A stretch of 64,000 nucleotides of DNA from a virus: the IMG/VR virus record IMGVR_UViG_3300009705_003007, positions 1 to 64,000 of that record; one strand, 5' to 3'. The position numbers were made by a program, and so were the translations under genes. The notes beneath the pieces are model-generated. The model saw only the letters and a program-made list of their open reading frames with translations. It did no database searches and was not told the origin of the DNA. Shown here piece by piece: positions 17,838 through 52,363 of the stretch (positions within the stretch are counted from its first letter, which is position 1; every line of letters starts with the position of its first letter).

Positions 17838-20206
17838 TGCCAGTATATCTAAGCGGAAAAGTAGCAGGCGAAAGAAACCATTTGATTCCAGCCCCATTCG
17901 TAAGTATTTCAAAAAATTACGATAAGGACGGAACTGGTGAAATACTTGGAGTTTCATATAGTATACAGCTTACCGGCACGTTGGTTGCCGATAGGGGTTC
18001 TCCTAAAGCTAACGGTGGGCTTATTCAGGGTGCTGGTGTTGATGTTTATTATGCCTTTACTGGGGATGATTTCCATCAGGCTTTATTAAACAAGGGCAAA
18101 GCCCTAATGAACATGTTTAGTAAACAATACGATGGTCAGGTTCTGACAATTGATTCTCCTATGTTTGGGAATCCTCAAGGTATATCTTGCTATATAACTG
18201 TAGAGAGTGTTGATTTGCCGGGACACAACCCCGGAGACCCGTACAAAATGCCGTATACAGTTAATCTTTCAACAAACGCCCTACTTGGCCCTAATAATGT
18301 TCCACTTGATGCTGACGACTATGAGCGGGTTGATAATTGGACGATCAAGTCTGCTACTGAGACATGGAATATAGAAGAGGTTGATAAACAAATCTATACT
18401 AGACATTCTATAGATGGTGGAGAAGCAGTAAATGATGCAGGAATTGTAAAAGGCCCGGGGAATAAAGGTGAATTAGTAAATAGCAGAAAACTATTTCAAA
18501 TAACAAGAAGCATGTCAGCTACCGGAAAAAACAAATTTCAAAGAACTGGAAAAAGTGAAGGAGTTAGCGCTAACGATAACTGGAGTACAGTCTATGCTCC
18601 AAATGGTAGAGCTTGGCAACAAGCCAGAGGGTATCTATATGACAAAATAGAATATGGTAACAAATACCTATTTGGAAAAGATGATAACGAATTTGTCGGC
18701 GCTGTGCCAGATGCTGGCTTGCCAGCACCGGGAGAGGTCGATGCTGATGATATTCATTTGTTCTCAATGAATATGCCCGTTCCAAATAATGAAGCAGACG
18801 CTAACAAGCAATACAAAGCTTTTAATTATAAAAGATTATCAAACGTAGATATAAATGCTGGTAGTTTTAATGTAACGGAAACTTGGTATTTAGCTCCATC
18901 TTCCGCCAAAGCTATGGAAACCATGGACTTTAGCATCAACGAAGAGTCAGAGGGGGATGGTAGTGTAACCATTAGTGTAAACGGCACCATAGAAGGATTG
19001 GGTGACAACGCTGATAATCTAGGTGTAGGCAACGCCAACAATGATGATAGGGATGTACGGAGAAATGCCGCTCGTGGAGATAGGGTATTTGATTACGAAG
19101 GAAACGGCCTTGGCGTGTTCGGCGTTAGTAATAGTAAGTGGCAAAATGCAGTTGAGCATTATGAAAAAGTAATGCCAACTTTGTTTAAGACCGTTACCGA
19201 AATGTTAAATGACCTTCCAGAATACACTACTTTTAAGGTCAATCCAGTTCCAGAGTCAAAAAGTGTCACTGAACAACCCGGAACTGGAACCATTACGTAT
19301 AACATATCCTTTACAACTAAGGATGGAGCTAATGGTAAGTATATACCTTATTGTCGAACTGAAGACTGGACTGTAAACGACACTTATCCCGGTATGGTTA
19401 TAGCTCAACACACTGTTCTAGGTAGAAGAGTTGGCCCCGTATTACAATCTATTAATACACAAACGCAATGGCAGAGAGATTTTTCTATCACCGCTAACTT
19501 TGATGTTAATAGAGCGCAGCTATGTGTAGATGCTTCTAATCAAATAAGAGATGTTGGGAATCAAGCAACATGTGAAGCAACGTTGGATAGTTTTGGACTG
19601 CTTATGAAATGGATACAAAATCCCAATTATGTAAACACCAGAACGTCTTTGACGATTGATGATTATTCAATAGATTTTATTAGCGCAAAACCGGGGGCTG
19701 CTAGAATAGGAACTAATTTGGGTGTTTGTACTCCTGAAACTGATCCAGTCACCGCTGCAACTATAACATCGCAAGCTGAATGTCAAGCATTGACTCCTGC
19801 GGGAAGTTGGAATCCAAATGGTAACCCAGTTGGAGCCGCCACGGGGACGGGACTTATACAAGCGCAAGCAATTAAGAAACTAATTGATTCGTTTGATCCA
19901 AAAACTTATCTCATAACTGGGGCAAACAACCCAAAAAGAGTACATAAAAGGTTTGTAAATCCACCGCAAGAAAGCTGGAATCCAAAAACTGGAGACTGGA
20001 GCTTTAGCGTAAGTTGGATTTACGAAATAAACGACCCTTACGCGTTTCCATCCGGCGATTATGTATTCGCTGATGTTGATGGAACTTATGGAACATGTAG
20101 TGATGCATCTATTGCAACCAAGGCGGAGTGTGTAGCAGCAGGTGGATCTTGGGAAAGCAAGCAAGATGACGGACAAGGCGAACCATATCCGGGGCAGGAA
20201 TTCTAA
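17837..20206 (+). CDS. Putative distal tail/baseplate protein with Cys-Trp module inserts
   Basis: Beta-rich (IPAPFVSISKNY, SATETWNIEE, WSFSVSWIYE); second gene after the tape measure; three C..C..W modules near the C-terminus. Confidence 0.5.
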   Translation: MPVYLSGKVAGERNHLIPAPFVSISKNYDKDGTGEILGVSYSIQLTGTLVADRGSPKANGGLIQGAGVDVYYAFTGDDFHQALLNKGKALMNMFSKQYDGQVLTIDSPMFGNPQGISCYITVESVDLPGHNPGDPYKMPYTVNLSTNALLGPNNVPLDADDYERVDNWTIKSATETWNIEEVDKQIYTRHSIDGGEAVNDAGIVKGPGNKGELVNSRKLFQITRSMSATGKNKFQRTGKSEGVSANDNWSTVYAPNGRAWQQARGYLYDKIEYGNKYLFGKDDNEFVGAVPDAGLPAPGEVDADDIHLFSMNMPVPNNEADANKQYKAFNYKRLSNVDINAGSFNVTETWYLAPSSAKAMETMDFSINEESEGDGSVTISVNGTIEGLGDNADNLGVGNANNDDRDVRRNAARGDRVFDYEGNGLGVFGVSNSKWQNAVEHYEKVMPTLFKTVTEMLNDLPEYTTFKVNPVPESKSVTEQPGTGTITYNISFTTKDGANGKYIPYCRTEDWTVNDTYPGMVIAQHTVLGRRVGPVLQSINTQTQWQRDFSITANFDVNRAQLCVDASNQIRDVGNQATCEATLDSFGLLMKWIQNPNYVNTRTSLTIDDYSIDFISAKPGAARIGTNLGVCTPETDPVTAATITSQAECQALTPAGSWNPNGNPVGAATGTGLIQAQAIKKLIDSFDPKTYLITGANNPKRVHKRFVNPPQESWNPKTGDWSFSVSWIYEINDPYAFPSGDYVFADVDGTYGTCSDASIATKAECVAAGGSWESKQDDGQGEPYPGQEF

Positions 20207-23200
20207 TGAGCAGTCATGACACAGCATTTAAATGTAGTAAAGACCCAAAAACGAATGACACTAAATCAAAGTGTACAGACGCTGGAGGTAATTGGGATTC
20301 GTATAACTCAACATCAAGCGATTATACCACATTAGAATTGGGTATTTTTCAGCAAAGCTTTTTAGGCCTGTCCATTATGGACTGGAGTTCAAATCTAGGG
20401 TTTAACGGAAATGGATCAAGTTTAACCGTAAACTTAGTTAGAGATGAATTTAATACACGGTCGTTCTTAACACCCTCTGGAACTAGAGATGCTATAACGG
20501 AAGGTTATCATAGCTGGAACCCAGACGCTTTCCCAAAAGACATGTTAACTAAATACGGCATTGACACCTCGCCTGATGCTGAGCCGGGGAATTCCGAAGA
20601 CGGAATGGGGCTTATATATTCGCAGTTTGGAGATATAGCTCACATGCCAGATCCGGGAGAGCCTGTTTTCTTCCATTATTATAACGGCGCGGATTTGAAT
20701 TCAACTTGTGTTCTTGAGAGAAATTGTAACAAAGCGTTTTCATTTCCGGGAATATTAACCAAATACGAAAAGAGGTTTTCTACATCTGGATTAACCTATT
20801 CCGTAAACATAGCAGACCCCCGAACCATCTTGGAAAACACCATAGTTATCTTAAATGGGTATGCGTCTAGGGTTTCACCCAGTGATTACTATACGGTAGC
20901 AGATAGTCTACGAACATACGAAGATGGATGGAATGGATATTACAACATATTAAATGTCTATGGGTATTACGAACATCACGGCTTTAATAAATCCGATAGA
21001 ACAGAAGCTGGAATGATTTGGCTTAGTCCAGACAAAATATTTAATACAGATTGGGAATCCGAAAAATGTATGAAAAATGGCGCAGAACACGTAGTCACTG
21101 GAGCTGACTGCGCTGCGGATGGTGGCACCATTGAGAGCAATGGAGGTCAGCATATGTTTGGTATACTTCCGGCCTTGATGGAAATGACAGGCGGCACAAT
21201 TACAAGCTACCAAAATGATCAAGAGCCTTTTGGTGGCCCAATGACCTATTCTGTAGATAGTAGACACTTAGCTGAAAAAGCGCCTTTTGCAGAGATATAC
21301 GGAGAGGATGGATATGGTAGTAACCCTTACCGTTCTACACACAGGTATCTATTAGATCTAGGAGACTTCCTTAGTCTAAGTCCTTATGATCCAGAATGGG
21401 GAGTAGTAGAAGACTTAAATGGAACAGAAGGGTTTATACCAACGGATTATCGAGTTGCCGGAGACTCAATGTCTCTCCTTCAATTAATACAACAGGTTTG
21501 TGAAGTTGCGGCTTCTGATTTTTACGTAACTCTAGAACCAATAACGAAAAAACTAATTGAAAGAAATTATGTTTTACCGCAAGACTACGAAGCAATAAAA
21601 AATTATTCGGGCGTTATTAGAGTTGTTGTAGTTGCTAGAAACTCAACCATAACCAAAGATGCTTTGAGCGACGCTGTAGACCTGTCTCAAAAATTACCAC
21701 CAGAAGGCCCATTTGTAGACGTGGAAAATAATCCCACACTTGTTAGTTCAACTCTTGGGTATGAGTTTACTGATCCAGTAGAAGGTAAGATTTTATTGGG
21801 TGGGCCAAGAACAAGGGTTGTGGGCGTCACACCTATTGGAGATAGAAGACTTAGAAAAGAGCTATTCTATAACGACACATCACGCAAGTATTTAGATATG
21901 TCATCAAGAGCCTACAAATGTATGGATGATAATGACGTAGAAGTGCCGGGGATGGTAGATGATACGGCGTGTTTGAACGAAGATGCAACAAACACATGGG
22001 AAGAAGTTGACACAACAGAACAAAGTCCAGCACCAGTAGAGGGAACAGACTCTATATTAACAGAGTATTTACCGAATGTAGAATTGGATGGAGTTACCCT
22101 TACTCGTCAAGACATACCAGAAGACACTTTTTTAGATGGAACGACTTTTGGTTGGAACCCTTATGGAAAAGTTGGAGTAACTGACAAAGACCTTTTTCCA
22201 GATTTTGCACAAAACCTTCCTCCTGTTAGTAACGATAATTACATTCCTTGGTATTGGCCTCAAGACTATTCTGGCGACAAAAACGAAGAAGCAGACCCTT
22301 TCCAGTTTAATAGAGTTAATTCTTTGGAGCAATCAAATGCTGGGGATTGCGTTTTTTCTGGCAATACTCCAGAAAATTTTTATTGCAAAGCGGTGGATGA
22401 CGCTAACCAAGGCAGTCCAACAGAAGCGGAATGTGTAGCAGCTTCGTCAGATAACGTCTGGACAACAGCTCCCAGTAGCGAAGACGGTTGTGACGGAGCT
22501 GAAGGAGGCTGGACTGCTAAACAAGAATCGCTCAGTTCTGGTTATTTAGACATATTCCCATGCTGGGGATATATTGAATATGAACACACAGAAGGTGGCG
22601 CGTATAAGAATTTGCATGGAAGCTGTATAAAAACAGGAGAAGCTGGAGATGTTGGGGTTGAGGCAGCAGACAAGGAGGCTTGTGAAGCATTAGGTTTTGA
22701 TCATAAATGGGTTCCTGATCCTCCATCAGCCATTCAAGCAACCGATCCGCTTCTTGACATAGTAGATAATACTGTTCAGGGTAAACCAATTAAAGGTTTT
22801 ACTTGGGATGATGATCCCTACAGAGACTTTAATCCAGTAGAAGGTATTTTCAGTGGAATAGAATGGTGGAATCCGAGTATTGGAAACTGCGAAGACAAGT
22901 CTGGTGCTTTAGTGACAAAATGGGAGAATATGCCCAACATATGTGAATGTAATCCAGATAAGTCGGAGGCAGACTCAGACTGTGTGACAATAAGGGGTGG
23001 TGATAAAGGATTATATATATTCAGACCTCATTGCGTACCTTGGAGCGCCTGTCGTGGTAAAACAGGAGAGGATATATTAGACACCACCGGTGGTCTTGCT
23101 GGGTCAGGAAACAGTGTAGCTTCAACGTCTTATGGGTGTGAGTTTGGATGTTTTGATCTTAAAGTGGACAGCAACGGTGATCCATTGGATCCAGAAGAAC

Positions 23201-26200
23201 CAGCATCTTCTAATTCTAGATTAGTAGCCTATTATACAAAAGAGTTTACAGGAACAGGATCCACGCCTCGTACTTATAAAAAAGGAGAGAGCGCTAACAA
23301 AGATCATGATAAGTGGGCGTCAAACCTAAAAAACGGAACTGTTCAACTAGTGGCAAGCGCAGACGACTGTGTGAAAAGTGGAACATTCTTAGATCCTCCA
23401 GTAAACAGGGGTTCTTTTAGAACTTCTTCGAGTGGCGGAATCGCGGAGTCTGCTACGTGTGACATTAATGCTGCGGATAACCCCAGTCAAACGAAATGTG
23501 AACAATCACAATGTGAAGGAGATAGAGGTAAAACAAACGCTGAATGTACCGCAGCAGGCAAAACTTGGAAAAAGGGAAAATGGAAAGAAGGAGATGAAAA
23601 TGATTATGAGAGTGGTGGCGGTCTTTATTCACAGGAATGTACAGCTCTTAGTTTTAGAGAAGACTGGATGCATGGTTGTTATTCTACGACAGAGATTACG
23701 GGAGATATCCCGTATCCTGCTAACAGTCTAACTGATGCAGTATCACCCAAAGACTGTAGAATCAAATACCCTACAGCAAAATGGAGAAACATAAAAGAAA
23801 ACGAATACCCACCTCAAGGGCTTACAGACCCATTCACGGGTTTAGTATTAGAAAAAGAAGATATTCCAGTGCCGGGATATGTAAAGACAAGACAAAGACT
23901 AAAAGGTGAATGTCACATGTTCTCAGAAACCGAGAACGAGGAGACTGGCTCAATAGACTCGGAAGACGAAGGCTTACCAGAGAATCCAACCAATGACCCA
24001 AGAGAATGTATGGCACAAAGTACCGCAGCCACTGAGGATAACCTCGAAGCAAATGGCAAAATGGTCTATGGGCCTATAGACCTTAATACTGGAATAGGTC
24101 TACCTCTAAAATGTAGAACCTCAACCATTCCTATAGATTTAGGACAAGTTGATTATTATGGTGGCCCCAAGCCAGAACATAATGATCCCGGTGGTCAATT
24201 CCAAGATTTTCATTACGCGACAGTAACAGAATTGAGACATGCCGCAACTAGTAAAGAATCTTGGCTGATCTTTATGAAAGAACTTCAGCCATATTTACCC
24301 TGTCATATGTATCATCAAGACCCACAGCAGTCAAACGCTTGGGGTGATCATTGTCCAGCCAAAGATAATATTGTTATGAAAGGTGGTATGAGCGGATCTT
24401 ATGTAGACGCAGCAAATGCTTTAACTGGGTTTGAATCAAGAGGTGTTTCTGTACCTGAAACTAATCCTTCTCCCGCGAAAGCAAAAACGGTAACGGGTGA
24501 ACCATGTGGAGATGAAGCCCAAAGCGCCCTGATGACAAACTACGAAAAAACAAGCATGATGATAGATCTCGCTTTTAAAAAGGTTGCACATGTAGCCACG
24601 CAGTTCTACGGAAGGAAGTATTTGGTTCCGCTTCCTTATAATCCACCATCAACCATAACGTGTACAAACCCAAGCCATAAAGACAAAGAAGCGTGTGAAA
24701 ATCTAGGATTTGATTGGGGCGCACATGGCTTACAAAGCGAATGGTTCCACAAAATGGGCGTTGGGAGATGTGCAAACGGAACAAGTCCCGATAAATATCA
24801 TTGCCAAATAGTTTCAGGGGATATATGGATTGAACCCATTCAAGAAATTAACAGATGGGAAATTGCAACTTCCGCATGGCCCGGAGGAGATATAGAATTT
24901 AACTTTGGTAGCGCAGAAGGAAAAGCTATTAATACTGGCTATCCACAAAATATGAACTTTTGGACTGATGACGGGAATTTAAAATCCTTTGTTATATTCC
25001 CAGAAAAAGAATGGCAAAGATTCTCTGGAAATTCTGTGCCTGTAAGTTTTGCCTCTTTTGATGCAGAAACTTTTTACAAAACTCCATTTAACGCTGGCCC
25101 TCATGATAATTGGGGTGGCAAGGTGTATGTTCCTACGCAAGTAGACCCAAAAACACACTGGTTAACAGATAGACCTGACTGGGAGGTTCATCATGAACTT
25201 CAGTATAAAAAATATTTAGCTGGTAGCCCAATGGAGCTTCCTAAAGGTGGTGAAACCGCCGCCCAGCTGAAAAGTTTAGCAACGTTAGCCGTAGTTGGAT
25301 GCGAACCAACAGAGGAGATTTGTTCTAAGACTAAACCAGATGGTACTGCCTGTACAGACCAATCGTCATGCGAAGATGACACTAATGGGTGTGGTGGTAG
25401 TTGGCACCTTCCCACAGACACATCAAGAATATTAAAAGAAAGACCAGTTATAACAAAGGGAACAACTGGAGTATTTCCTCAAGAAAACATTACTGATTAC
25501 GCTGCATATAAACCATACGCAATGGTAACACTTCCGGCAACCGCTATTTATTCACACACGGATGAGTCTAAAAAATTACACGACTCTGTAGGTGGAGAGA
25601 AGAATCACATGTGTGTGCCTTTATTAAAAGCTAAAAATTCAAATAGCTTATTACAGGCATGGTTAATGGGTTGGGATCCTTTAAGTATAGCAAGACAAAA
25701 TGTTGTAGCTTGGGGTGCTAGAATAATGGCTAATAGTAGTGTTGGGCCTGACATGAAGAAGGGGTCTTTTGCGGGAGCCGCCTATAAACCTTGGCATGCA
25801 GCAGTTCCTCAACAAAGCAGACATTATAGATGGGGAGCTTGGGCCGCAGGTTGGGATTTTGGAAAACCCGACTTCCAAATAGATGAAGCATTACACCCAG
25901 CCGCTTTTGGAGGGGAAAAAGGAATGAATAAAGCTGCTATGGCGAGAATAAAATCTACAATTGGTAAAGCTCAAAATAGAACTCAAGAAACCGGTAGTAT
26001 TCAATTAACTGGAATACCAGCATACGCTTTTGGTACACAGTTAGTATACGACAACGCTGCTGGCGAAACAGTAAAAGGGCCATTTATTACAGATGTTAGT
26101 GTCCAGATAGGATCCGGAGGTTTAACAACAACCTACAACTTTACTACAAACAGAAAATTTGGAGATTTAACAAAAACATACGAAGATAGAATCAGAAAGA

Positions 26201-26286
26201 GTCAACGAGACCTTCTTGCTAATCTTGCGAGAACAGAAGAATCAATCAGAAGAACAAAACGAGGAATAGACCAATATCAAAAATAG
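20206..26286 (+). CDS. Putative tail tip/baseplate hub protein (2026 aa) with many Cys-Trp module inserts
   Basis: Hub-like termini (SSLTVNLVRD...FPGILTKY...YSVNIADPR and ETGSIQLTGIP...ITDVSVQIGSGGLTTTYNF) flank Cys-rich inserts. Start overlaps the upstream stop. Confidence 0.55.
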   Translation: MSSHDTAFKCSKDPKTNDTKSKCTDAGGNWDSYNSTSSDYTTLELGIFQQSFLGLSIMDWSSNLGFNGNGSSLTVNLVRDEFNTRSFLTPSGTRDAITEGYHSWNPDAFPKDMLTKYGIDTSPDAEPGNSEDGMGLIYSQFGDIAHMPDPGEPVFFHYYNGADLNSTCVLERNCNKAFSFPGILTKYEKRFSTSGLTYSVNIADPRTILENTIVILNGYASRVSPSDYYTVADSLRTYEDGWNGYYNILNVYGYYEHHGFNKSDRTEAGMIWLSPDKIFNTDWESEKCMKNGAEHVVTGADCAADGGTIESNGGQHMFGILPALMEMTGGTITSYQNDQEPFGGPMTYSVDSRHLAEKAPFAEIYGEDGYGSNPYRSTHRYLLDLGDFLSLSPYDPEWGVVEDLNGTEGFIPTDYRVAGDSMSLLQLIQQVCEVAASDFYVTLEPITKKLIERNYVLPQDYEAIKNYSGVIRVVVVARNSTITKDALSDAVDLSQKLPPEGPFVDVENNPTLVSSTLGYEFTDPVEGKILLGGPRTRVVGVTPIGDRRLRKELFYNDTSRKYLDMSSRAYKCMDDNDVEVPGMVDDTACLNEDATNTWEEVDTTEQSPAPVEGTDSILTEYLPNVELDGVTLTRQDIPEDTFLDGTTFGWNPYGKVGVTDKDLFPDFAQNLPPVSNDNYIPWYWPQDYSGDKNEEADPFQFNRVNSLEQSNAGDCVFSGNTPENFYCKAVDDANQGSPTEAECVAASSDNVWTTAPSSEDGCDGAEGGWTAKQESLSSGYLDIFPCWGYIEYEHTEGGAYKNLHGSCIKTGEAGDVGVEAADKEACEALGFDHKWVPDPPSAIQATDPLLDIVDNTVQGKPIKGFTWDDDPYRDFNPVEGIFSGIEWWNPSIGNCEDKSGALVTKWENMPNICECNPDKSEADSDCVTIRGGDKGLYIFRPHCVPWSACRGKTGEDILDTTGGLAGSGNSVASTSYGCEFGCFDLKVDSNGDPLDPEEPASSNSRLVAYYTKEFTGTGSTPRTYKKGESANKDHDKWASNLKNGTVQLVASADDCVKSGTFLDPPVNRGSFRTSSSGGIAESATCDINAADNPSQTKCEQSQCEGDRGKTNAECTAAGKTWKKGKWKEGDENDYESGGGLYSQECTALSFREDWMHGCYSTTEITGDIPYPANSLTDAVSPKDCRIKYPTAKWRNIKENEYPPQGLTDPFTGLVLEKEDIPVPGYVKTRQRLKGECHMFSETENEETGSIDSEDEGLPENPTNDPRECMAQSTAATEDNLEANGKMVYGPIDLNTGIGLPLKCRTSTIPIDLGQVDYYGGPKPEHNDPGGQFQDFHYATVTELRHAATSKESWLIFMKELQPYLPCHMYHQDPQQSNAWGDHCPAKDNIVMKGGMSGSYVDAANALTGFESRGVSVPETNPSPAKAKTVTGEPCGDEAQSALMTNYEKTSMMIDLAFKKVAHVATQFYGRKYLVPLPYNPPSTITCTNPSHKDKEACENLGFDWGAHGLQSEWFHKMGVGRCANGTSPDKYHCQIVSGDIWIEPIQEINRWEIATSAWPGGDIEFNFGSAEGKAINTGYPQNMNFWTDDGNLKSFVIFPEKEWQRFSGNSVPVSFASFDAETFYKTPFNAGPHDNWGGKVYVPTQVDPKTHWLTDRPDWEVHHELQYKKYLAGSPMELPKGGETAAQLKSLATLAVVGCEPTEEICSKTKPDGTACTDQSSCEDDTNGCGGSWHLPTDTSRILKERPVITKGTTGVFPQENITDYAAYKPYAMVTLPATAIYSHTDESKKLHDSVGGEKNHMCVPLLKAKNSNSLLQAWLMGWDPLSIARQNVVAWGARIMANSSVGPDMKKGSFAGAAYKPWHAAVPQQSRHYRWGAWAAGWDFGKPDFQIDEALHPAAFGGEKGMNKAAMARIKSTIGKAQNRTQETGSIQLTGIPAYAFGTQLVYDNAAGETVKGPFITDVSVQIGSGGLTTTYNFTTNRKFGDLTKTYEDRIRKSQRDLLANLARTEESIRRTKRGIDQYQK

Positions 26287-26296
26287 GTAAACAATA

Positions 26297-28111
26297 ATGG
26301 CTGGAAACGCAATACCATACGCAGGCCAAGGTGGCTCAGAAGATAGAGAAAAAACCGATCTGGCTGATTATAGCCACTTGATGTTATCGAGCGTGTATAA
26401 CATTACTGAAAATCTTGTTGCTAGAGATGGCTCAAATAAGGTTATGTTCTGGGATAATCACCCAGATTACGAAGGTGGGGAAATAAAAATAAGAGACTCA
26501 ACTGCAACAACCATGACAAGTCCAGCAGTTACTTACATGTCTCAATTTCCCGGAGATAGCTCTTGGGAGAAAGCTGCGGGTATGTCTTTGGATGGTTTGT
26601 TTGTGCCTTATGCAACAAACTTCAAAGTAAAAAATGATGGTGGTAAAGACGCAGATCTAAACAGACCATTAGATGACACCGGAATGCCAACTTTTGAAAG
26701 ACCTTATAGTTCAGCCCAATTAGACGTAGCCGAAGATAGAGTTCCTTTTAATGAAGTTGTAGGACATCCAGATTTAGGTATTAATGCCCCATCACCATCT
26801 TTTATTACGTCTGTGTCTTTAAACCCATTTGCTTCTGGTCATTACGTCGCTCGTCTTAATAAAAATGAAACTATCACTAACCCAAGTCAGGATGCTATTG
26901 GTGGTGGTTACGCAACAGATGTTCCAACATTAGCCGACGCACCAACAGATCAAACACATGTAGCAAGACCAGTAGGTCTTAGAGGGCCAATGGTAATGGC
27001 TGGTTGGGGTTATGACATATATGAATTGCCAGTCCCTAACCTTAGATTTGATGCTGAGTTTAGACATAATGATCCGGGATCTGCAAATTATGGAAGACAA
27101 CGATACGTGCCTACACCAATGCAGGCAAAAACAGCATCAGGTATGCAGAAAGACCACAAGCACTTTATACCAGTTCATATGAGAAGACCCGACCAGTGGA
27201 AGGTTGGCCCTATTGACTTAAGATGGGATCACCAAAGAAAAGTTTGGGCTGGTGGTAAACACAATGGAATATACTTATCAAAAGCTACTAAATGTATATT
27301 ACCACAAGCTGGTCTAGATGGGAATAATTCATTCAACTTTGGCGTTGGTGGAAACGTAAATGCACCGGGAAGGCTTTACAGAAACCCGTGTCCAACACAC
27401 GAATGCACACACACGTCCTATTTTCCAACAAGCATATACTATCCAGATATTGAAATATATGATCCAGAAGATCATAACTGGTGCGGTAGATGTAGAACTT
27501 TAGGACATCTAACAGCTTGTGCAGATTTTAAAGATGGCTGCTCTCCATTTTATGATGCACTTATACTAAGACCAATTGATGAAGTGGTTGGACAACCAAA
27601 CACTCTTACGGAATGTACTGATAAGTTTAGAAAAGTACAGGGTGGATCACCCGGACAAAGAAGGGCTGGAAACCCATGTCATGGATGGGGTTCTAGTTAT
27701 TTCGGAGAAAAAGAATTCATTAATAGGAAAATTGGTGAAGAGAAAACTTGGACACAACATGCAAAAGCTATGATGTACGAAAAGATATTTATAGAAAACC
27801 CTCTAGGCCAAGGTTTAATGGTAGGAGACGCGTTTTTCAGTTATGATACTGGTAAGAGAATAGTTTATGAATATGAGAGAATGGTTGATGCTAGCTGTGG
27901 GCAAACTGCCGGAACTACAGTAAAAGTAAAAGAAGCAATACCTGTTCATATTATATTACAAGGTGAGTTTTACGGAATGGAAATTATTTCGCACGCAGGT
28001 TGTGATAGAGGCGAAATGGCTGCTTGTTCTAAAAAATTCTTTGCTCAAGGCTTTGCCACAGCGGAAGACTGCGGGCCTGATGATGATTATCCACAAACAG
28101 CAGGACTATAA
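26297..28111 (+). CDS. Putative tail tip/spike-associated protein with Cys-rich C-half
   Basis: Follows the hub candidate; RPVGLRGPMVMAGWGYD and WKVGPIDLRWD core; paired Cys residues in the C-half. Confidence 0.45.
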   Translation: MAGNAIPYAGQGGSEDREKTDLADYSHLMLSSVYNITENLVARDGSNKVMFWDNHPDYEGGEIKIRDSTATTMTSPAVTYMSQFPGDSSWEKAAGMSLDGLFVPYATNFKVKNDGGKDADLNRPLDDTGMPTFERPYSSAQLDVAEDRVPFNEVVGHPDLGINAPSPSFITSVSLNPFASGHYVARLNKNETITNPSQDAIGGGYATDVPTLADAPTDQTHVARPVGLRGPMVMAGWGYDIYELPVPNLRFDAEFRHNDPGSANYGRQRYVPTPMQAKTASGMQKDHKHFIPVHMRRPDQWKVGPIDLRWDHQRKVWAGGKHNGIYLSKATKCILPQAGLDGNNSFNFGVGGNVNAPGRLYRNPCPTHECTHTSYFPTSIYYPDIEIYDPEDHNWCGRCRTLGHLTACADFKDGCSPFYDALILRPIDEVVGQPNTLTECTDKFRKVQGGSPGQRRAGNPCHGWGSSYFGEKEFINRKIGEEKTWTQHAKAMMYEKIFIENPLGQGLMVGDAFFSYDTGKRIVYEYERMVDASCGQTAGTTVKVKEAIPVHIILQGEFYGMEIISHAGCDRGEMAACSKKFFAQGFATAEDCGPDDDYPQTAGL

Positions 28112-31100
28112 TGGCAATAGGCGATCCTTGGGACACAAGTTATAACCCTCGTTATAACTACCCTCTTAAAAATCAACACACTGGTAAACCCGCATGGATG
28201 CCAGACGCTTCCGATGAAGTACCTCAAGATAACCCTCTTGCCCTAAAAGATAGAAGAAAGGGTAGATTCTGTACTGAGGGATGTGGCTGCATAGATACGT
28301 ATTGTAGTAATTTAGCAGGGGCTAGATGTACTCTTCCTCCTGAATTAGCTATTACCATAATGAGAACACCGGATGGTAGATACCAAGCTAGAAATGGTAT
28401 TGAAAATGGTGAAGGTGAAACCTATCATCTTAAATATTCTAACGGGTCTTGGAGAGGCAGTAGGTGCTGCTCTCATAACGCAGATGGATCTCTTAATTAT
28501 GCCTGCGACCCATGTAAAGTAAGCACACTTCCAAATGGAAAACCGTCCGAGTGTCACCACGCCAATAATAAATATAAAGAATTAGATAGCAATAAGCAGG
28601 TAGGAGATAATTTCACCCCAAGGGGTAAATATCACTATGACGCAGCTATGCATGGTGAGGCATGGCCAAGAAGGGGTGTAGACACTTGGTTAGTACCAGA
28701 TGGGTATAACGAAACCCTTCCTACCGATGGTACTGAAATGCTAAAGTCCTCGGAGAGAGTGGGAAGATATTCGGGTTGTTTTAATATAGACGGCTCATTA
28801 CAAGAGGTTGACGCAGCAGTTACCGATGATGCGTCATGTAAAGATTTACATGGGCCGAAGGCTTATTGGAATGAGTTTATACCTAGTTGGACAAACAATG
28901 ACGTAAAAGACAGGCAGTCTGTTGAAGATTTAATTGGTACTGAATTACAACAAACTCAATTTTCTAAGAATTCGACCTCTGCTCGCTTAAACATAAAAGC
29001 AGTAGAAAAAAGAATACGCATAGATAAAGAAAATTATCTTGTTGGTTATAGCATCCAAAATGGATCAGACGAAGATGTCGCTGAAAACATTGCAGATCCA
29101 CGTATTGCTTATTCAACTGTTGACTCTAGAGAAGGTGGATGTATAGAAGACGGGGCAGCACCAATAAAGAAGCGCCCTTGGTGTAGAAATGCAGGAACGG
29201 GAACAAGAATACGACAACAGTGTACCGACACACAGCATAAAAACAAAATAGACTGCGAAGATGCGGTTATTCCCGGTACTAGCGAAACGACTACATCAGA
29301 AATTTGGCTTTATGATGATAAGAGCGAGTGTCAAGGTTCTGGTTTTTGTTACCCACCTGAAGAAACAGGCGGTACTGGCGTAGCAGATTTATCCGTAGAA
29401 GCACTTAAGCCTCACTGTGTAACAAAAGCTTATTGTGAAGGAACGTCGGATAATTGTAGCCAATCAGTCGTTGATCCCGACACTGGGATAGGTAGAACCT
29501 GCGACACTAAAGACGATTGTGAAGCTCCGGTCTATGGAAATACTGGATGTGGTGGTTCGTGGCTTAACAATCCAGTACTTAATAAAGCAGATTGTATCGA
29601 CCTTGGGGAAAAATGGGTAGGAGAACAAGAATATACTCAGGGTTATTGTATTGATGAAATAGGACAAAGAGTTCCTTTAGATGTTCCGGCGGGAATGACA
29701 GAACAAGAATGTAGAGATTCCGATAAGGAAACATGGGTAGATCCCTCTAAAAGCAAAAAAGGTTGTGAGGAAGTTTTTCCAGAAGACGCTCCTAACGGAA
29801 CAGAATGGTCGCTTGGAAGTGAAAACAGTTGTGAGTCCCACAACAAAGGTAAAGATGCGCTTTGTAGAGACTCTGATGGTAATGTTATAGATGGTAGTTG
29901 TAGCTTAAGCTCCGACGAAAACAAAACACAGGAAGACTGCGTAGAATTATCTTGTTACGAAACTAGTAGCGGCGCAAAAGTTAGCAAATCAGAAGGCGAG
30001 TGTCTTGGCCCGATTTATTCTTGGAAAAAGGGGGTTTGGACTCCTTTTTCTAAAAAGAGTGTTTGTGAGGCAGCGGATGGAACGTGGTATAGTAATGTTT
30101 GGATGCCAAACGACTGGGTTGATTGGGAATATGAAAAAAGGTCTTGTTGCGGGGGAACCATTTTAGACGAAGCTCACCCATTTCACACTCCCCAGATTTC
30201 AGGAGGCGCTCGCAACACAAGAAAAAATACCGTGTGTTTCACTCCTTATTCAGAAGTGATTCTACATACGGATGCGATATCCGGCTTCATTGGAGATAGC
30301 CGAGGAGAAGGCTGTACCTCTATCGGAAATCAATTTGATAGGCAGTTATTCTTCCCAGATATTGAGAGCTATTGGACTGTCATAATTAGACCATGCAACT
30401 TCTGGGGTTCTTGCACAGAAGAAGGAAAAACAAGACCAGACCCTAGTGAATTAACAGGACAGCCTGATAATTACTTTGACACGACATGCGGAGAAGAAGT
30501 AGTTCTGTACCTTCCAGTAGATCAAATGTTAAATTGCTCTAACTTTAATCTAACACTGCAAAGTGAAGAACAATTGAGATCTGGATGGAAAGAGTCAGAA
30601 CCAATGTGGGATGAAAGAATGGGATCGTTTGAGTACGGAAACCCCGCAACCAACATTGCCGCAAAGGTTGGAATGAGTTCAGCTGTAACGGGAGCTGGAA
30701 ATATATCAGGAGGTTTCCCCGGAACGCCTTTTGGAACTCAGTACCCTGCGTGGTGTATGAATCCAGATGCAAATTTTGATGGAATAGCTGACGGACAAGC
30801 GTTTCAGGGATCAGCGAGTGGTCGGAATTTTTGTGATCAGTATGTTTATTATTCATCTGGTGCAGAAAAGAACCGACTTGCTAACGCTAAAGGGGCAGAA
30901 GTCCTTCACGGTTTTAATATACAACCACAACCCTTCAAAGCTACCGAAGAAAAGCAAAACAGAGCTAAGTCTTTCGAACAAGCCCTTAATGATAAAGCGT
31001 ATTGGCAAAAGTGCGTGGGTCATATAATGGGAGACTATGGCGGTGGTGGTCATTGGTTTTGGAATTATGGCGTAGATTATTTCATGTATTATGATTTTGT

Positions 31101-34100
31101 TGCATGGGGTGAAGTTTACCCAACCATGAAAGCGGGAGGTCATTGTGCGGATATAGCTCAAAAAGTATGGGATTATGTTGAGACTCATGATGGTTTCTTG
31201 AGACGTGGCGATTGTGGCTATGGAAACGGAGCCTTGTGGGTGGGGTGGGTTGAAGACGATGGCGTGGACAACGACTTTATGTGTCCAAAGTGTTTAACAA
31301 TCAACGATGAAGGACAATGCAATAGTGCAACTACATGCATGTTGCCAGATGGAACATCTGAACAGGGCGACTGCGCAAGTGGTCAAGGTCAATGTATGGA
31401 CATTGGAGGAGATGCCGTAGAGGGAATAACTGAAGAAGGAGATTGTAATGGAGAAGGACAAAATTGGAGAGACGGAGTAACTGAAGATTGTTGCGAATGG
31501 TTCAAATTTTGTTCGTTCGACATATGCACCAATTTCGATGACGTTCAAGAGAGTCAGGGCTTAGTCGATTGTGTATGGAGAAAAGCAGACACAAAAGAAG
31601 AGTGTGAGAGGAAGATGAGCAACACGGGCGCTGGCGGTATTTGGCAAGACGGATGTGTTCCAACTGAAGCAAGATTACTACTGGATGAATGCTCTCCTGT
31701 TCACGATATACCAGAAGAACTTATAAACATTGTTTTGGGAGAAAAGGTAGGTGAATGTACTTGTTTTAATGAAGCAGGTGACGACCTTAGCGCGAACCTA
31801 CCTGAAAATGAATGTCAAGAATTGGTAAATTCTGGGGTTTGTGATGGAAGTATTCCTCCTGCATTTAACCCAGATATGGTTGGAGGTCAAGGAAGCACTT
31901 ATCCAGTAAGAGAAAACAACGTAGTTAAACTAAGGGTTGATGGGCCTTTAACCACAGAATTGACCGACCTGAGCGAAATAGAAGACGGTTTTCTAAAGTC
32001 TAAATGTTGGCTTAATGACGAAGTGTTTACGGTTAGTTTTGGTGAAATAGACAAGGCGCTTTGTCTTGCTATGAATAATAATCCACTTACACCGGGAGTA
32101 TTTAGATGGGGGCCAGACTATTACACAACTGAGTTTGGGTTAAAACGTCGTAGTCCCTTATCTGGAGGAGAGGGAGTAGGCAATGCCATGACTTACTGGC
32201 ATCACACTGGGCTTTTCCCCAAAGGTGAGATGGCTAGTTATGTTAACGATCACTGCATGGGAACTATGCAGCATAGAAGAATCCAGTACGCCAGCAACGA
32301 AAGACCAATCAAAATAACTTCCAGAAACCACCTATTAAAAGACGGTGATCTTGTTTCTACTTGGGATGTCCAAGGCAATTTTGGTGCTAACGTCATGACT
32401 AATCGTGATTGGCAAGAAACCCAATGGGAAGACAAGATATATAGCCCATGTGTTGGAGAGACTTGCGACGAAGTAATGTGGCCAAATAGCGTTTGTGCCG
32501 AGTCCACAATATGCTTAGACGAACAGGGTAATGAAATAAAGGGAGCAGGTAGAGAATCTTGTACAGGAGGAGAATGTGAAGCAACAAGAAAGGATGGTTC
32601 CAAATGTAATAGTCAAAATGCTTGTGAAGCAGAAGCGGAAGAATGTATCCCTCTGCAATCAGATGGCACTTGTAAAGAAGGTTTTGTAAAAGATAAAGAT
32701 TATAAGTTTGATAACGCAACCCAAAGCCAACCCACATGTGATGAGAAGAAATTTTCATGCTGTTATAATAAAGAAGACGGTGCTGGGATGTGTTTAAACA
32801 CCCTGTGGGAAAACCCAGACAGCCTGATGGGATGTGGTTCAAAGTGGGACGGAAAACAAGGAAACACCTTTAAAACATATTGCGATACCGATAAGTATTA
32901 CGCTTGTAACGGAGCGCCTATATTGGGAGAAGATCCTCCTCCAATGGATTCTTTTGTAGCCAAGAACGTGACACTTGACACTTTTGATTTATTTACATGT
33001 GACAAACACCCGGTCGATGGAAGAATAAAAAACAAAACAAATTTAGATACTGAAGAATGTGAAGACGAAAGTAAGCAAGTATGTGTAACAAATGCTGGCA
33101 TGCCCTATGAGACGATTGTTGCGGAGCCTGAATGGTCTGTTAAACTTTCGCCCTTCGAAGATGAGAAATATTTTGGACTAGTGGGCCACGAAGCTTTCGA
33201 AAAGCAAGAATGGTGCGCTGCTGGAGATCAGCTAAGACCAGAACACACTAGTAATGCTGCGTGTACCCATGCAGGTTTTACTTGGACTAATAATTATTCG
33301 CTTGAAACAGGTTCTTGTGACATAGACTCAAATAACAACATAAAATACAACGACTGTATAGAATTAGCCTGCTACATAGAGGACAGGAGAACAAGAAAGT
33401 CAGAAACAGAATGTGTTGGGTCTGACGTTAACGGAGTGGCTTTACTCTGGAAAAAGGGAAACTGGTCAGGTGGGGTTGATGCAGACGTTAGATGTATTAC
33501 TTTTGGGAAATGCCTAATTGTAGACAATGCTATTGGCGTGTCTGAAGGCATGATGACAAGAGATGAATGCACCCTTCTTGGAAAAACCTTCAGAACTCTT
33601 CATACGAACAAACCTTACACAGATGGAACACAACAATATCTGCATCAATGCTATGATGGATCTGCTAATGCAGATAATCATGAAGACATTATACGAAAGG
33701 CTATGGACGTTGATGAATTAGAAAAAGTATGTCTAGCAAAACATAGTAAATGTATAGATTATGATGGCAATGACTTAGGCATAGGTAATGAAAGCAATTG
33801 CTTATCAATGGGTGGAACGTGGCAAACTGGTAAAGTCCAAACCCAATATAACGAGTGTGTTAAAACAATAGAGGGTGAGTTGGGGGTTTTAGACTACTCG
33901 TTCGGAGATCCTTTTAAAAACTGTTTTATTGAAAACGCATGGAAGTCCGAAATGATGCTGGACGACACGAGTTCCATGGTCTCAAGCTTTGGAGTACCCA
34001 GCGTGGGCGTTTGGAAGACATGTCCATTCACTGGTCAATGGGACTATTGGGGAAATGCCAACGATGATGTTGGTGTAGAAGCTGGTTATGTAAGCCATCT

Positions 34101-37100
34101 TAATGCTGATGAACTGGATTCCAAATTCAAACTTGGATGGGGAGGGCCGGGATATAAATGGGAAGAAAGAGCAAACGATTACTATGTACAAATTGAACAA
34201 AAAGGTATATGTCCAGTATGCTGTGATCACTTTATGCCTAGAAGTCTTATTGCAACAATTTCAGACCAACCAACTGAAATATTGAATCATATACAATGTA
34301 GAATGGATCCTTGTGATGCACCAACAGCGAATGATTCGTTTGGTATTAACGACGTGGGATCCGCTAATCATGATGGCTATTGTTGTGCAGACGCGCATCA
34401 TCCTTGTGTTTTAGGTGATGATGTTCCGAATTGTGAAAGTGAATTCATTCCTCTTCCTAACGGTAGCTTAAAGCCTGTAACTTTTGGTCAGTGTTATAAA
34501 GACGGCGAATTGCTTGTTTCTTTCAGACGAGATGATTGCGTTAGGAAGAGAGGTGGCACGTTTGTGCCGGTAACAGCGCCGGAGATGTGTGATCCATTCA
34601 TAAGAACACGTCTCAGTAATGCTGGAACTACGAATTGTAGGAAGTGTTCAGAGGTGTATAGCTCCAGACATAAAGTTAAAACTTATGCGGAAACCGGAAA
34701 TGTAAAATCGAGAGAAAGAGGGCTCTTGAGTTATTCAGGAAGTAATTGCTGCGAAGATGGAACGTTATGTGAAAGAACTACAAACGCACAAGACAAAAAC
34801 CTTCTGGACGAAGATTATCCTTATCCAACATGTGAACAAGTAAGATTTTTATGCCCGCCTTGTACGGTAGAGGGACAAACATGTAACAAGGGACAAGTAT
34901 CAGCATTATGCAAGGTGACGCTTGATCCTTATGGAAATGAAGTTGGGATTGATTGGCAGTTTGAGCCTTGTATTTGTTTCCCAAACAATGTTTCGTATGA
35001 GTATGAGCCTGAATTTGTAGTCACGGGTGACGCAGGAAACTCGGCAGCCGGAAGTTGTGATTTCAATGGGGTTAAGAATAGCGCTGGGGATATGGGGGTA
35101 GATAATGCTGGAGGATGTTATGACGTTAACGGAAACATAGTAGTAGGAAAAGAGAGAAAAAACGGCGCCTTAGAATCAGACTGTGCTAGTAACGAAAAAT
35201 GGAAAAGCGGATCTGGTGGTTGTATGCCAATGCATATAGAAGCATACGCTGATGAATCTTGCTACGATCTAGGAAATTCTATTGAGTCATACGATTCGAC
35301 ATGTCCCGGATTCGACGCGATTGACGTACCAATGGAATACGATGGGGTTGTATGGAGATCAGAATGGGAGTTGATGAATGAAGTTGGCTTAAAGACATGT
35401 GAATTTGGCATGCATAGATTCCACTGGCCTGTAAATTGTAGAGCAACTGGCCCATCAGGAAGTGATTATACTGCTCCATCAGAAATTGTTGCTGTCGGTG
35501 GTGACTGTGACGGATGCGACATGCCTCAAATGGGCTTGCATGGAATATTGGTTGACGGAAGAAAAAGCTGGCTAACACATAGAAATGCAAAACTACCAAA
35601 CGCAACTAATGACGGGCATTTTATTAGATTAGTAATGGGCTGTGGAAACTCTATACCATCAATAGACGCTTATAGAAGTGGTGATATAGTTGATGGCGGC
35701 TTTGGGCCAATATTAGGAGCCACTTATAGAGATAACGGTATTAAAATATGGTCAGAAATAACCAACTGTACCTTTACAGACGCTATGGGTTCTGATGGTC
35801 TAAGAATAGACAGGGTTGATACTGGTGTTTCTGGTAGTCCTCCTATCTTTCCCCTCAAACCATGCATATCAAAAAATCAACTAGTTAAGGCGATGCACGG
35901 AAAACTTCCTACACCGGGAGATCCAACTGAAACAGAAAGAGTCTATACGTTTGCTGGAAGATGTATAAGGAAAAAAGACTGTGGGCCAAAGGGGCCATGT
36001 CACGGTACAGACTGCTGTACTTACAAGGGAAGAGATAAAAGGTACTTCAGCGCCCCGCTTTGGAGTGGAGGTATTGCTTGTTCGACAGGCGGAGACCTTG
36101 CACATAGATGTCAGGCAACTGGTTTCGATCCCCTTCCTTCAAAACCGGCAGAACAATTTACTGTTCATTATATAAAAGATGTTAATCCTGTAACGGGTGA
36201 AGGAACGCTCGTTGTTCCAGCTTACGCCCCAACATTTGGTGGTAGAAGGTGTCATTATGAAAACGGAACTCCCGTTGGTATTGGTGTAGCCGAATTACAA
36301 GATGCTGAACTAGACACTTTTGGCGATTTTTCAAGAAATAACAAATCTAGAAATCCATATCTACCAGCCGGTGGCACAGTCATAACGGGGTCTAAAACGT
36401 CATCTACAAAATCTTCTGTTACTACTTATAAGCGACACGACGGTATTCCAAGCGGAGATGCCATACCTGACGAACATGGTGATAAAGGTCGTGGTAATGG
36501 TCAGTTTATGGAAATAAAGGTCGCAAATGTTGCACCGCTTATAACCAAAAACCCAAGGAAGAACAGACATTTAAGAATCTATGATAGGTCGAGAGGAAGC
36601 GCAGCATCTGGTTTTCATAACGCCACCACTCTTTCTGGCATGAATATGCTACAAAGGTATGACTTACCGCAGCCTTACGGTTTAAATCCTTGGCCTGTCG
36701 ATCACCAAACGCACTCAACCTCCTATAGTCCATGGCCTAAAGGTGGCCCACATTCACCTAATGCTTTATTGGGGGGTATACCTACGGAGAGTCTAAGAAA
36801 AGATCCTGCTCTTTCTCTTAATCAACCCGGAAGAGTTGGGCCTATGCCAACAATGGATAATCTAAATAGAATGTTTAGGTATAATGAAGTAAACATGGGA
36901 GATGGAGCGACCACGCCCATTCCAGAAATATTTCCTTTTGAGCCTGTTCAGATTGATGGGTTTGATAATGTCTATTCAGACTCATTAGGAGCTTGTACTA
37001 ATTCTTATTACAAAACCAAGGGTGCTTGTAAAACAGCAGACCATCTATGGATTCCTCAGTTCATATATACAAAAGTTACAACAAAATACGATCATGATTT

Positions 37101-39183: not shown

Positions 39184-39193
39184 GAGGAATATA

Positions 39194-52362: not shown

Positions 52363-52363
52363 G

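What the first reader, a model, noticed from the sequence alone, without database searches (positions are those of the whole stretch)
23452..33465. Russian-doll nesting: modules inserted inside modules, with a shared WKKGxW closure
Seen: several Cys stretches parse like nested brackets rather than tandem repeats. At 23452-23589: TCDINAADNPSQTKCEQ[SQCEGDRGKTNAECTAAGKTWKK]GKW. At 33310-33465: SCDIDSNNNIKYNDCIEL[ACYIEDRRTRKSETECVG...LWKK]GNW. At 29860-30108 it is three deep: LCRDSDGNVI{DGSCSLSSDENKTQEDCVEL[SCYETSSGAKVSKSEGECLGPIYSWKK]GVWTPF}SKKSVCEAADGTW. All three closures use the same 11 nt, TGGAAAAAGGG (23566, 30022, 33448), and they span two genes. Inference: repeated insertion of the module into its own loop would give branched or telescoping stalks in which the chain goes out and comes back. 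It would also imply exchange of composite units between genes.
Basis: partly seen in the sequence, partly recalled or inferred. Interest (0 to 1): 0.85.

Follow-up and report, generated by a model that had tools for sequence, protein, structure and literature searches.

The report
Self-nested cysteine mini-domains in phage tail
Two giant tail-tip proteins of an uncultured phage carry a 25-30-residue two-cysteine, one-tryptophan mini-domain, also present once each in T4 baseplate proteins gp8 and gp10, that sits inside copies of itself up to three deep; the shared 11-nt string is only a codon coincidence.

Summary
The strings and the three TGGAAAAAGGG sites are as reported. They lie in a 2026-aa and a 3690-aa gene downstream of the tape-measure gene of a 79-kb viral contig.

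- **Basic unit:** C-x(9-18)-C-x(2-3)-G-G-x-W. A 69-sequence alignment folds it confidently (pLDDT 88). The first strand carries C1, a short helix carries C2, and the last strand carries G-x-W.
- **Cassette:** the three stretches are copies of a conserved 45-52-aa unit. A second mini-domain sits four residues after C2 of the first. At 29860-30108 the cassette sits in the loop of a third unit.
- **Support for nesting:** homologs lack the inner unit at the predicted points. Block shuffles never reach the nested parse (0/300). Peeled outer units still match the module profile.
- **Not shown:** cysteine pairing. AF2 of the nested segment failed (pLDDT 43).
- **The 11-mer:** it is W-K-K-G in codons. 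The cassettes are only 49-58% identical in DNA, and orthologs read WKGG, WTNG or WKPSGG, so recent exchange between genes is not supported. Old copying is plausible.
- **Closest known:** a whole-genome T4 search with the profile hits only gp8 and gp10.

This scan found the same nested mini-domain earlier on other phage DNA (e1-5999298, e1-5898298, e1-5731341, e1-6020457). My literature searches found no description.

The parts
20206..26286 (+). P0001, a 2026-aa tail-tip or baseplate protein with 48 Cys. It carries about 9 mini-domain units.
   Evidence: ORF and translation. No Pfam or PHROG family. It lies three genes after the tape-measure gene. Five of the 16 module-profile hits in the contig fall here.
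28111..39183 (+). P0002, a 3690-aa tail-tip or fibre protein with 184 Cys (5%). It carries about 18 units, including all the deeper nests.
   Evidence: Ten module-profile hits. Peel parse.
23458..23583 (+). Cassette 1 (P0001 aa 1085-1126). The outer unit is C1085..C1098 closed by G-K-W1126. The inner unit is C1103..C1114..W1121.
   Evidence: An orthologous cassette exists in G5. The whole cassette is absent in G12, L016, L017 and L018. The peeled outer unit scores only 5.3 bits, p 0.25.
29863..30087 (+). Three-level nest (P0002 aa 585-659). The outermost unit is C585..C652..W659. Cassette 2 (aa 597-643) sits in its loop, and that cassette holds the inner unit C615..C631..W638.
   Evidence: Peeled level-2 unit: 18.7 bits, p 0.005. 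Peeled level-3 unit: 10.8 bits, p 0.02. L018 has a plain unit at this anchored position, and G5 has the full nest.
33316..33465 (+). Cassette 3 (P0002 aa 1736-1785). Its inner closure is five residues longer than in the other cassettes.
   Evidence: The G5 ortholog shares the five-residue extension. The peeled outer unit scores 4.9 bits, p 0.19.
22348..22512 (+). Further nested site (P0001 aa 715-769), with a unit in the first loop of another unit.
   Evidence: Peeled outer unit: 6.6 bits, p 0.13.
29500..29616 (+). Further nested site (P0002 aa 464-502), with a short unit in the loop of another unit.
   Evidence: Peeled outer unit: 16.3 bits, p 0.02.
32758..32847 (+). Possible nested site (P0002 aa 1550-1579). 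This parse is weak.
   Evidence: Peeled outer unit: 1.3 bits, p 0.34.
31393..31467 (+). Plain unit (P0002 aa 1095-1119) present only in the window lineage.
   Evidence: Absent from G5, G11, L016 and L018 in the alignment.
17837..20206 (+). 789-aa tail protein with two plain units (aa 631-658 and 754-772).
   Evidence: The unit at 20090-20155 scores 21.8 bits against a profile it did not help to build. The same stretch gives a sub-threshold Pfam Phage-Gp8 match.
7029..15188 (+). Tape-measure protein (2719 aa, no Cys). It fixes the context as the tail-tip module.
   Evidence: PF10145 PhageMin_Tail, E 1.8e-25. Cys count.

Best explanation
The three stretches are copies of one conserved two-disulfide cassette built from two copies of a small plug-in mini-domain.

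**The mini-domain.** It is C1, a 9-18-residue loop, C2, then x(2-3)-G-G-x-W. It is predicted to fold as a first strand bearing C1, a variable loop, a short helix bearing C2, and a last strand bearing G-x-W. The two four-residue strands are the only ones in the model, so I infer that they pair with each other. The chain would then enter and leave at the same small sheet, which would let the unit be spliced into any exposed loop.

**The two insertion points.** Both loops of the unit accept further units.
- Cassettes have an inner unit inserted four residues after C2, so the two Trp closures pile up as W-x-x-G-x-W.
- Other nests, including the outermost level at 29860-30108, have the insert in the loop between C1 and the helix.

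**Evolution.** Whole units and whole cassettes are gained, lost or copied within and between the three adjacent tail genes. They evolve faster than the scaffold.

**Function (inferred).** The likely result is short branched, disulfide-stapled protrusions on the tail tip. They probably give oxidation-hardened, variable surface for stability or host contact.

**Shown:** the sequence pattern, the indel behaviour, the profile similarity of the outer units, the predicted secondary structure of a single unit, and the match to T4 gp8 and gp10.

**Inferred:** strand pairing in the single unit, the actual disulfide pairing, the physical fold of the nested forms, and the function.
For: **Unit and cassette**
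- The unit recurs in the three tail genes only. All 16 profile hits in the 79-kb contig lie between 17837 and 39183.
- Ten cassettes from five lineages share invariant C, C, C, C, W, G, W columns and a C-x-E-L-A-C-Y core.
- AF2 of one unit with 69 aligned units gives pLDDT 88.1, with strand 3-6, helix 18-23 and strand 27-30. Both observed insertion points fall in its loops.

**Nesting**
- The nested parse exceeds the shuffles: 0 of 300 for P0002 and for P0001.
- The peeled outer units of 23 nested sites sum to 193.6 bits against the unit profile. The null, with Cys and Trp fixed and other residues shuffled, gives 58.4 +/- 14.5, and 0 of 5000 draws reach the observed sum.
- Homologs with and without inner units exist at five or more independent sites and with different inner unit types.

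**Evolution and relatives**
- Units are 46-54% identical between the window and G5, against 68-75% for the scaffold. dN/dS is 0.31-0.46 against 0.12-0.30.
- A six-frame search of the whole T4 genome with the unit profile gives exactly two hits: gp8 aa 142-162 (E 0.0025) and gp10 aa 330-350 (E 0.0032).
- A T4 review states that Cys555 is the only cysteine conserved in gp10 among T4-like phages (PMC3004832). The gp10 unit is therefore variable there too.
Against: - There is no structural evidence for the nested forms. AF2 of the three-level segment gave pLDDT 43.5.
- Strand pairing in the single-unit model is my reading of the secondary-structure string. The tool gave no coordinates, so I could not check it.
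- Cys pairing is untested.
- The cassette behaves as one conserved unit with a fixed insertion point (C2+4 in the eight cassettes of P0001 aa 1085 and of P0002; C2+7 in the P0001 aa ~805 cassettes of G12 and L016). The cassette nest may therefore reflect one old event, not repeated insertion.
- At P0001 aa ~802 the difference between relatives wraps around the inner unit, which plain insertion does not explain.
- The T4 matches are not significant against the whole PDB (E 1.2-9).
- Function is inferred from context only.
Confidence: 0.7

Rival explanations
1. The cassette is a separate four-cysteine domain, or a tandem pair of hairpins with a two-Trp tail, that only looks nested. Its resemblance to 'unit inside unit' comes from shared composition. 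The physical fold is not outer-around-inner.
For: - The cassette is conserved and propagated as one block with a fixed junction.
- For a two-level cassette the predicted Cys pairs are 1-2 and 3-4 under both models, so pairing cannot separate them.
- The outer units of cassettes 1 and 3 match the unit profile weakly.
- The change from simple unit to cassette at P0001 aa ~802 involves both flanks.
Against: - The outer units of four other cassettes (window aa 597; G5 aa 465 and 623; G12 P0001 aa 805) score 7.6-18.7 bits with p 0.005-0.05 after removal of the inner unit, as does the cassette-like arrangement at G5 aa 371 (11.6 bits, p 0.015).
- That arrangement at G5 aa 371-415 arose by insertion of a different inner unit at the same C2+4 point. 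The window and L018 lack it.
- Loop-type nests cannot be read as tandem arrays at all.
- The cassette profile finds no other family among 1.84 billion representatives or in the PDB.
Confidence: 0.2
2. The shared TGGAAAAAGGG marks recent DNA-level exchange between the three cassettes of this genome. The mechanism would be short-patch gene conversion or an in-frame mobile element.
For: - All three window cassettes read WKKG with the same codons, while their orthologs in G5 read WKGG, WTNG and WKPSGG.
- AAA-AAG is used in only 9 of 33 Lys-Lys pairs.
- Two G5 cassettes likewise share WTNGNW.
Against: - Identity stops at the 11-14 nt patch.
- The cassettes are 49-58% identical in DNA and share the same codon at only 7-12 of 11-20 identical residues.
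- There is no extended repeat, and the cassettes sit at orthologous positions in a relative 60-71% identical.
- The chance of one shared codon pair, given WKKG, is about 0.06-0.17.
Confidence: 0.07
3. The bracket parse is a chance product of a Cys- and Trp-rich, low-complexity sequence.
For: The regular expression is permissive. Some parses (P0002 aa 1550-1579, and a few in relatives) score no better than shuffles.
Against: - 0 of 300 block shuffles reach the observed nested counts.
- The summed outer scores exceed all 5000 null draws.
- Indels between orthologs fall on the parsed unit boundaries.
Confidence: 0.03

Closest known systems
Single C-x10-C-x2-G-G-x-W segment of phage T4 baseplate wedge proteins gp8 (aa 142-162; PDB 1N7Z, 5IV5) and gp10 (aa 330-350), and of the gp8 homolog in PDB 9F4A
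   Same: - Same Cys spacing, same acidic residues before C2 and same L-G-G-x-W closure.
- Also found in tail-tip or baseplate proteins.
- These are the only two matches to the unit profile in the whole T4 genome.
- The unit is variable among T4-like phages, at least in gp10 (PMC3004832).
   Different: - T4 has one plain unit per protein, with no nesting and no cassette.
- The carrier proteins are unrelated: hhalign of the P0001 C-terminus against gp6 and gp7 gives probability below 1%.
- The match is short, at 17 bits.
- I could not open the coordinates to confirm a disulfide or the fold.
Nested domain insertion and add-on decoration domains in phage structural proteins (Ig-like, CBM-like and similar inserts in hubs, fibres and capsids; from general knowledge)
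   Same: Whole small domains are spliced into surface loops of conserved virion proteins. They are gained and lost between relatives and evolve faster than the scaffold.
   Different: Here the insert is only 25-30 residues, is held by one disulfide, and is inserted into copies of itself up to three deep. This produces a recurring pre-nested cassette.
Designed disulfide-stapled mini-proteins of strand-strand-helix-strand type (PDB 5JI4) and the KP6 alpha subunit (PDB 1KP6)
   Same: Best structural look-alikes of the predicted unit: Z 2.4-2.7, rmsd 1.7-2.2 over 30-33 residues.
   Different: The scores are far below anything meaningful. There is no sequence relation, so this is a shape analogy only.

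Membership tests
C-C-G-G-x-W mini-domain as in T4 gp8 and gp10 (no curated family) | Two Cys 9-18 residues apart, followed within 3-8 residues by (G)-G-x-W | tested here: met
   69 non-redundant units are aligned with invariant C, C and W columns. T4 gp8 and gp10 fit the same profile.
C-C-G-G-x-W mini-domain as in T4 gp8 and gp10 (no curated family) | Statistically supported sequence match to the T4 segments | tested here: inconclusive
   E 0.0025 and 0.0032 per T4 genome, and these are the only two hits there. Against the whole PDB the E-values are only 1.2-9.
C-C-G-G-x-W mini-domain as in T4 gp8 and gp10 (no curated family) | Common fold with a C1-C2 disulfide | not testable with these tools
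   The AF2 model of the unit is confident (pLDDT 88.1). No coordinates are returned, and Foldseek and VIA-align did not list gp8.
Pfam PF09215 Phage-Gp8 (whole protein family) | Score above the gathering cut-off over the gp8 fold | tested here: not met
   Only aa 750-782 of the 789-aa protein match profile positions 138-170, at 17.0 bits against a 25-bit cut-off. P0001 and P0002 have no Pfam hit.
Curated Cys-rich domain families (EGF, TSR, Kazal, chitin-binding and others in Pfam-A) | Any Pfam-A match at E up to 0.01 | tested here: not met
   Pfam-A and PHROGs each return 0 families for P0001 and P0002. The cassette profile finds nothing in the PDB.
In-frame mobile DNA repeats (palindromic or MITE-like elements in coding regions) | High nucleotide identity between copies, beyond what the protein requires | tested here: not met
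   DNA identity between the window cassettes is 49-58%. The best pair of non-orthologous units is 68-71% identical in DNA.
Nested (self-)domain insertion architecture | Homologs with the outer unit intact and the inner unit absent, at the same anchored position | tested here: met
   L018 against the window at aa 585-659. G5 against the window at aa ~384, ~1147 and ~2345. G11 against the window at aa ~1474.
Nested (self-)domain insertion architecture | The outer unit folds around the inner one (outer-outer and inner-inner contacts) | tested here: inconclusive
   AF2 of the nested segment gave pLDDT 43.5. The Cys co-loss test showed no contrast with its control.

The most novel reading that the evidence does not exclude
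A 25-30-residue disulfide-stapled mini-domain, whose single-copy form sits in T4 gp8 and gp10, grows phage tail-tip proteins by recursive insertion into its own two loops. This would give physically branched, self-similar protrusions. Pre-nested cassettes would be copied between tail genes as building blocks. It would be a general, undescribed way in which uncultured phages build giant, variable, oxidation-hardened host-contact surfaces.
Probability: 0.5. Interest if true: 0.7.

Novelty: new variant of a known kind. Interest (0 to 1): 0.6.

Why it matters
Domain insertion into loops is known, but repeated insertion of one tiny domain into itself is not a described way of building proteins.

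- **Protein size:** it would help explain how phage tail proteins reach 2000-3700 residues without long tandem arrays.
- **Annotation:** it gives a rule for parsing such Cys-rich 'dark' proteins. Peel the units and the conserved scaffold becomes alignable.
- **Experimental handle:** the unit has a counterpart in T4 gp8 and gp10, where solved structures and genetics are available.
- **Protein engineering:** the unit is a natural, very small, loop-insertable scaffold.

Tried and rejected
- **AF2 of the three-level segment** with an 8-row alignment gave pLDDT 43.5, which is unusable. The structure tool returns no coordinates, so Cys-Cys contacts could not be mapped even for the confident single-unit model.
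- **Fold searches** with the unit model found nothing meaningful: Foldseek best E 1.4, VIA-align best Z 2.7.
- **ESM Atlas look-up** of the nested segment gave no usable hit.
- **Cassette profile against 1.84 billion representatives** gave 4 hits. Three of them are unrelated repeat proteins by inspection of their sequences. The fourth, P0007 (2033 aa, best stretch at aa 1092-1136), matches the G5-type P0001 homolog in length and cassette position, but I did not fetch its sequence. Against the PDB there were 0 hits.
- **Megablast and tblastn against 50,697 phage genomes** found no match.
- **First peel test** with a hand-built HMM and random excisions had a flawed control, because random cuts fell inside real units. 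I replaced it.
- **Cys co-loss between predicted partners** gave CC 220, Cx or xC 25 and xx 7 for partners, against CC 201, Cx or xC 24 and xx 9 for control pairs. The test has no power.
- **hhalign of the P0001 C-terminus against T4 gp6 and gp7** showed no relation.
- **Recent module indels between close relatives** (G11, G12 and L017; L014 and L015), which might have shown junction repeats, do not exist at that time scale.
- **A redox helper next door:** the 216-aa Cys-rich ORF has no Pfam family.
- **Literature searches** for nested or cysteine-rich tail modules and for a gp8/gp10 disulfide found no description. The held library is incomplete.


Full report
**Context**

The window is part of a 79.4-kb IMG/VR viral contig judged about half complete. 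The plus-strand block 7029-39183 is a tail module. It contains:
- a 2719-aa tape-measure protein (PF10145, E 1.8e-25, no Cys);
- an 879-aa protein with a ConA-like domain;
- a 789-aa protein;
- the 2026-aa P0001;
- a 604-aa protein;
- the 3690-aa P0002.

P0001 and P0002 have no Pfam or PHROG family and no relative among 50,697 phage genomes. P0002 is 5% Cys.

**Observation**

The quoted peptides and the three TGGAAAAAGGG sites are exact. The 11-mer is W-K-K-G in codons. Only the two Lys codons are free, and AAA-AAG is one of four roughly equally used Lys-Lys pairs (9 of 33). The three cassettes are 49-58% identical in DNA with no extended identity. Their orthologs in a relative read WKGG, WTNG and WKPSGG. 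The general closure is therefore W-x(2-4)-G-x-W. 'WKK' is a peculiarity of this genome. It is at most a hint of short-patch conversion, to which I give about 7%.

**The unit**

A simple search finds many copies of C-x(9-18)-C-x(2-3)-(G)-G-x-W in the 789-aa protein, P0001 and P0002. A profile built from 69 non-redundant units of five lineages (alignment A4) hits the contig 16 times, always inside these three genes. One hit is a unit that was not used to build the profile.

AF2 with this alignment gives a confident model (pLDDT 88.1). Its elements are strand 3-6 with C1, a loop, helix 18-23 with C2, and strand 27-30 with G-x-W. These are the only two four-residue strands, so I infer that they pair and that the chain enters and leaves at the same small sheet. 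I could not check this against coordinates. If it holds, the unit can be plugged into loops.

**The cassette**

It has invariant C, C, C, C, W, G, W columns and a C-x-E-L-A-C-Y core. It reads as a short outer unit whose closure is interrupted after C2 by a complete inner unit. The interruption is four residues after C2 in the eight cassettes of P0001 aa 1085 and of P0002, and seven residues after C2 in the P0001 aa ~805 cassettes of G12 and L016. In the model this is the loop between the helix and the last strand. At 29860-30108 the cassette lies in the first loop of a third unit (C585..C652..W659).

**Relatives**

I found four further lineages:
- G5 (loci L002, L005, L014, L015): 71% identical for P0001 and 60% for P0002;
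- G11, G12 and L017: about 46-54%;
- L016: about 53%;
- L018-L020: about 40%.

**Comparative evidence for nesting**

In the alignments, units behave as whole-unit indels on a conserved scaffold.
- **(a)** Directly before the conserved NDWVDWEYE-RSCCGG anchor, L018 has one plain unit where the window and G5 have the three-level structure. G11 and L016 have an intermediate form with three Cys.
- **(b)** G5 alone has an inner unit four residues after C2 of the unit at window aa ~371-415. This creates a new cassette-like arrangement. The window and L018 have the uninterrupted unit.
- **(c)** G5 alone has a unit inside the loop of the unit at window aa ~2345.
- **(d)** G11 and G12 alone have a 'C-LGP-x-Y-x-W' type unit inside the loop at window aa ~1474.
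- **(e)** G5 alone has a three-level insert at window aa ~1147.
- **(f)** The whole P0001 cassette at aa 1085 is absent from G12, L016, L017 and L018.
- **(g)** At P0001 aa ~802, L018 has nothing, the window and G5 have a plain unit, and G12, L016 and L017 have a cassette whose inner unit is the ortholog of the window's plain unit.

Case (g) is a wrap-around difference. It fits replacement by a cassette, or loss of the outer unit, better than simple insertion.

**Statistics**

- Iterative peeling gives 4 nested units in P0002 and 2 in P0001, against null means of 0.16 and 0.04. No block shuffle out of 300 reaches these counts.
- After peeling, the outer units of 23 nested sites in five lineages sum to 193.6 bits against the unit profile. 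With Cys and Trp kept in place and all other residues shuffled, the null is 58.4 +/- 14.5 with a maximum of 113.7 in 5000 draws.
- Individually, the cassette at aa 597 (18.7 bits) and the level-3 unit (10.8 bits) are convincing.
- The outer units of the cassettes at P0001 aa 1085 and P0002 aa 1736 are weak (5.3 and 4.9 bits).

**Evolution**

Units are less conserved than the scaffold: 46% against 68% identity in P0002 and 54% against 75% in P0001, window against G5. They have a somewhat higher dN/dS (0.31-0.46 against 0.12-0.30), with no sign of average positive selection.

The closest non-orthologous pairs are 56-64% identical in protein and 68-71% in DNA. One pair spans both genes of one genome (L003 aa 824 and L012 aa 1222). 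Copying within and between the tail genes has therefore happened, but not recently. No unit indel separates the closest relatives.

**Comparison with what is known**

The unit profile's only non-random-looking PDB hits are baseplate wedge proteins: T4 gp8, a gp8 homolog (9F4A) and T4 gp10. They have E 1.2-9 against the whole PDB. The independent sub-threshold Pfam Phage-Gp8 match of the 789-aa protein covers the same segment.

A six-frame search of the whole T4 genome gives exactly two hits: gp8 aa 142-162 and gp10 aa 330-350, with E 0.0025 and 0.0032. Both read C-x10-C-x-L-G-G-x-W. A T4 review notes that Cys555 is the only cysteine conserved in gp10 among T4-like phages (PMC3004832), so that unit is variable there as well.

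The cassette profile finds nothing convincing outside this clade among 1.84 billion representatives. Three of its four hits are unrelated repeat proteins. The fourth fits the G5-type P0001 homolog by length and position, but I did not fetch its sequence. The cassette profile finds nothing in the PDB either. My literature searches found no description of the unit or of its nesting.

**Earlier notes of this scan**

After I had found the T4 link, I read earlier notes of this scan. They report the same nested two-cysteine unit, with the same gp8/gp10 link, in other phage genomes (e1-5999298, e1-5898298, e1-5731341, e1-6020457). The scan has therefore seen this before on other DNA. These notes agree with my results but are not independent evidence.

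**Verdict**

- The nested reading is well supported as a statement about sequence architecture and evolutionary origin. It is plausible but unproven as a statement about the physical fold.
- The 11-nt string is not evidence of exchange, and exchange between the genes is old at best.
- Function is inferred from context only: disulfide-hardened, variable protrusions on the tail tip.
- I class this as a new variant of a known kind, namely loop-inserted add-on domains in virion proteins. It is unusual for the smallness of the unit and for its recursive insertion into itself.

Noticed in passing
L021:10575-10637 and L021:13073-13135 (T4 record NC_000866 86574-86636 and 89072-89134): T4 gp8 (aa 142-162) and gp10 (aa 330-350) each carry one C-x10-C-x-L-G-G-x-W segment. 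These are the only two matches to the unit profile in the whole T4 genome.
   Followed up: partly
window 23566-23576, 30022-30032, 33448-33458: All three cassettes of this genome read WKKG with identical codons, while their orthologs in lineage G5 differ. Two G5 cassettes likewise share WTNGNW. This may be short-patch homogenisation within a genome, or it may be chance.
   Followed up: partly
L003:4067-4153, L012 (P0002 homolog aa 1222-1247), L005:9445-9531, window:29947-30033: A unit subtype closing C-L-G-P-x-Y-x-W sits at different, non-orthologous sites in four lineages: inside a cassette, inside another unit's loop, and directly in the scaffold. The two copies in one genome are 64% identical in protein and 68% in DNA.
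   Followed up: partly
L011 and L016 (P0002 homologs aa ~439-490): At the site of the window's three-level nest, these lineages have an intermediate with an odd number of cysteines (three). It looks like a collapsed remnant of an inner unit.
   Followed up: no
window 7029-15188: The tape-measure protein is 2719 aa and has no cysteine at all, in sharp contrast to the neighbouring tail-tip proteins. Its length implies a very long tail.
   Followed up: no
window 40607-56113 (minus strand): A block of glycosyltransferases (several GT4-type), NDP-sugar epimerases or dehydratases and a methyltransferase lies next to the tail genes. It may serve virion or host-surface glycosylation.
   Followed up: no
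window 57010-58638 and 59480-61396 (minus strand): A DnaE-type DNA polymerase III alpha is encoded as two separate ORFs. One has the PHP and NTPase domains and the other has the finger and HHH domains. About 840 bases lie between them.
   Followed up: no
window 39170-39820: The 216-aa ORF directly after the 3690-aa gene has 7 Cys and no Pfam family. It has only a weak PHROG 32048 match (E 3.5e-6). A role in folding or oxidation of the Cys-rich tail proteins is possible but unsupported.
   Followed up: partly
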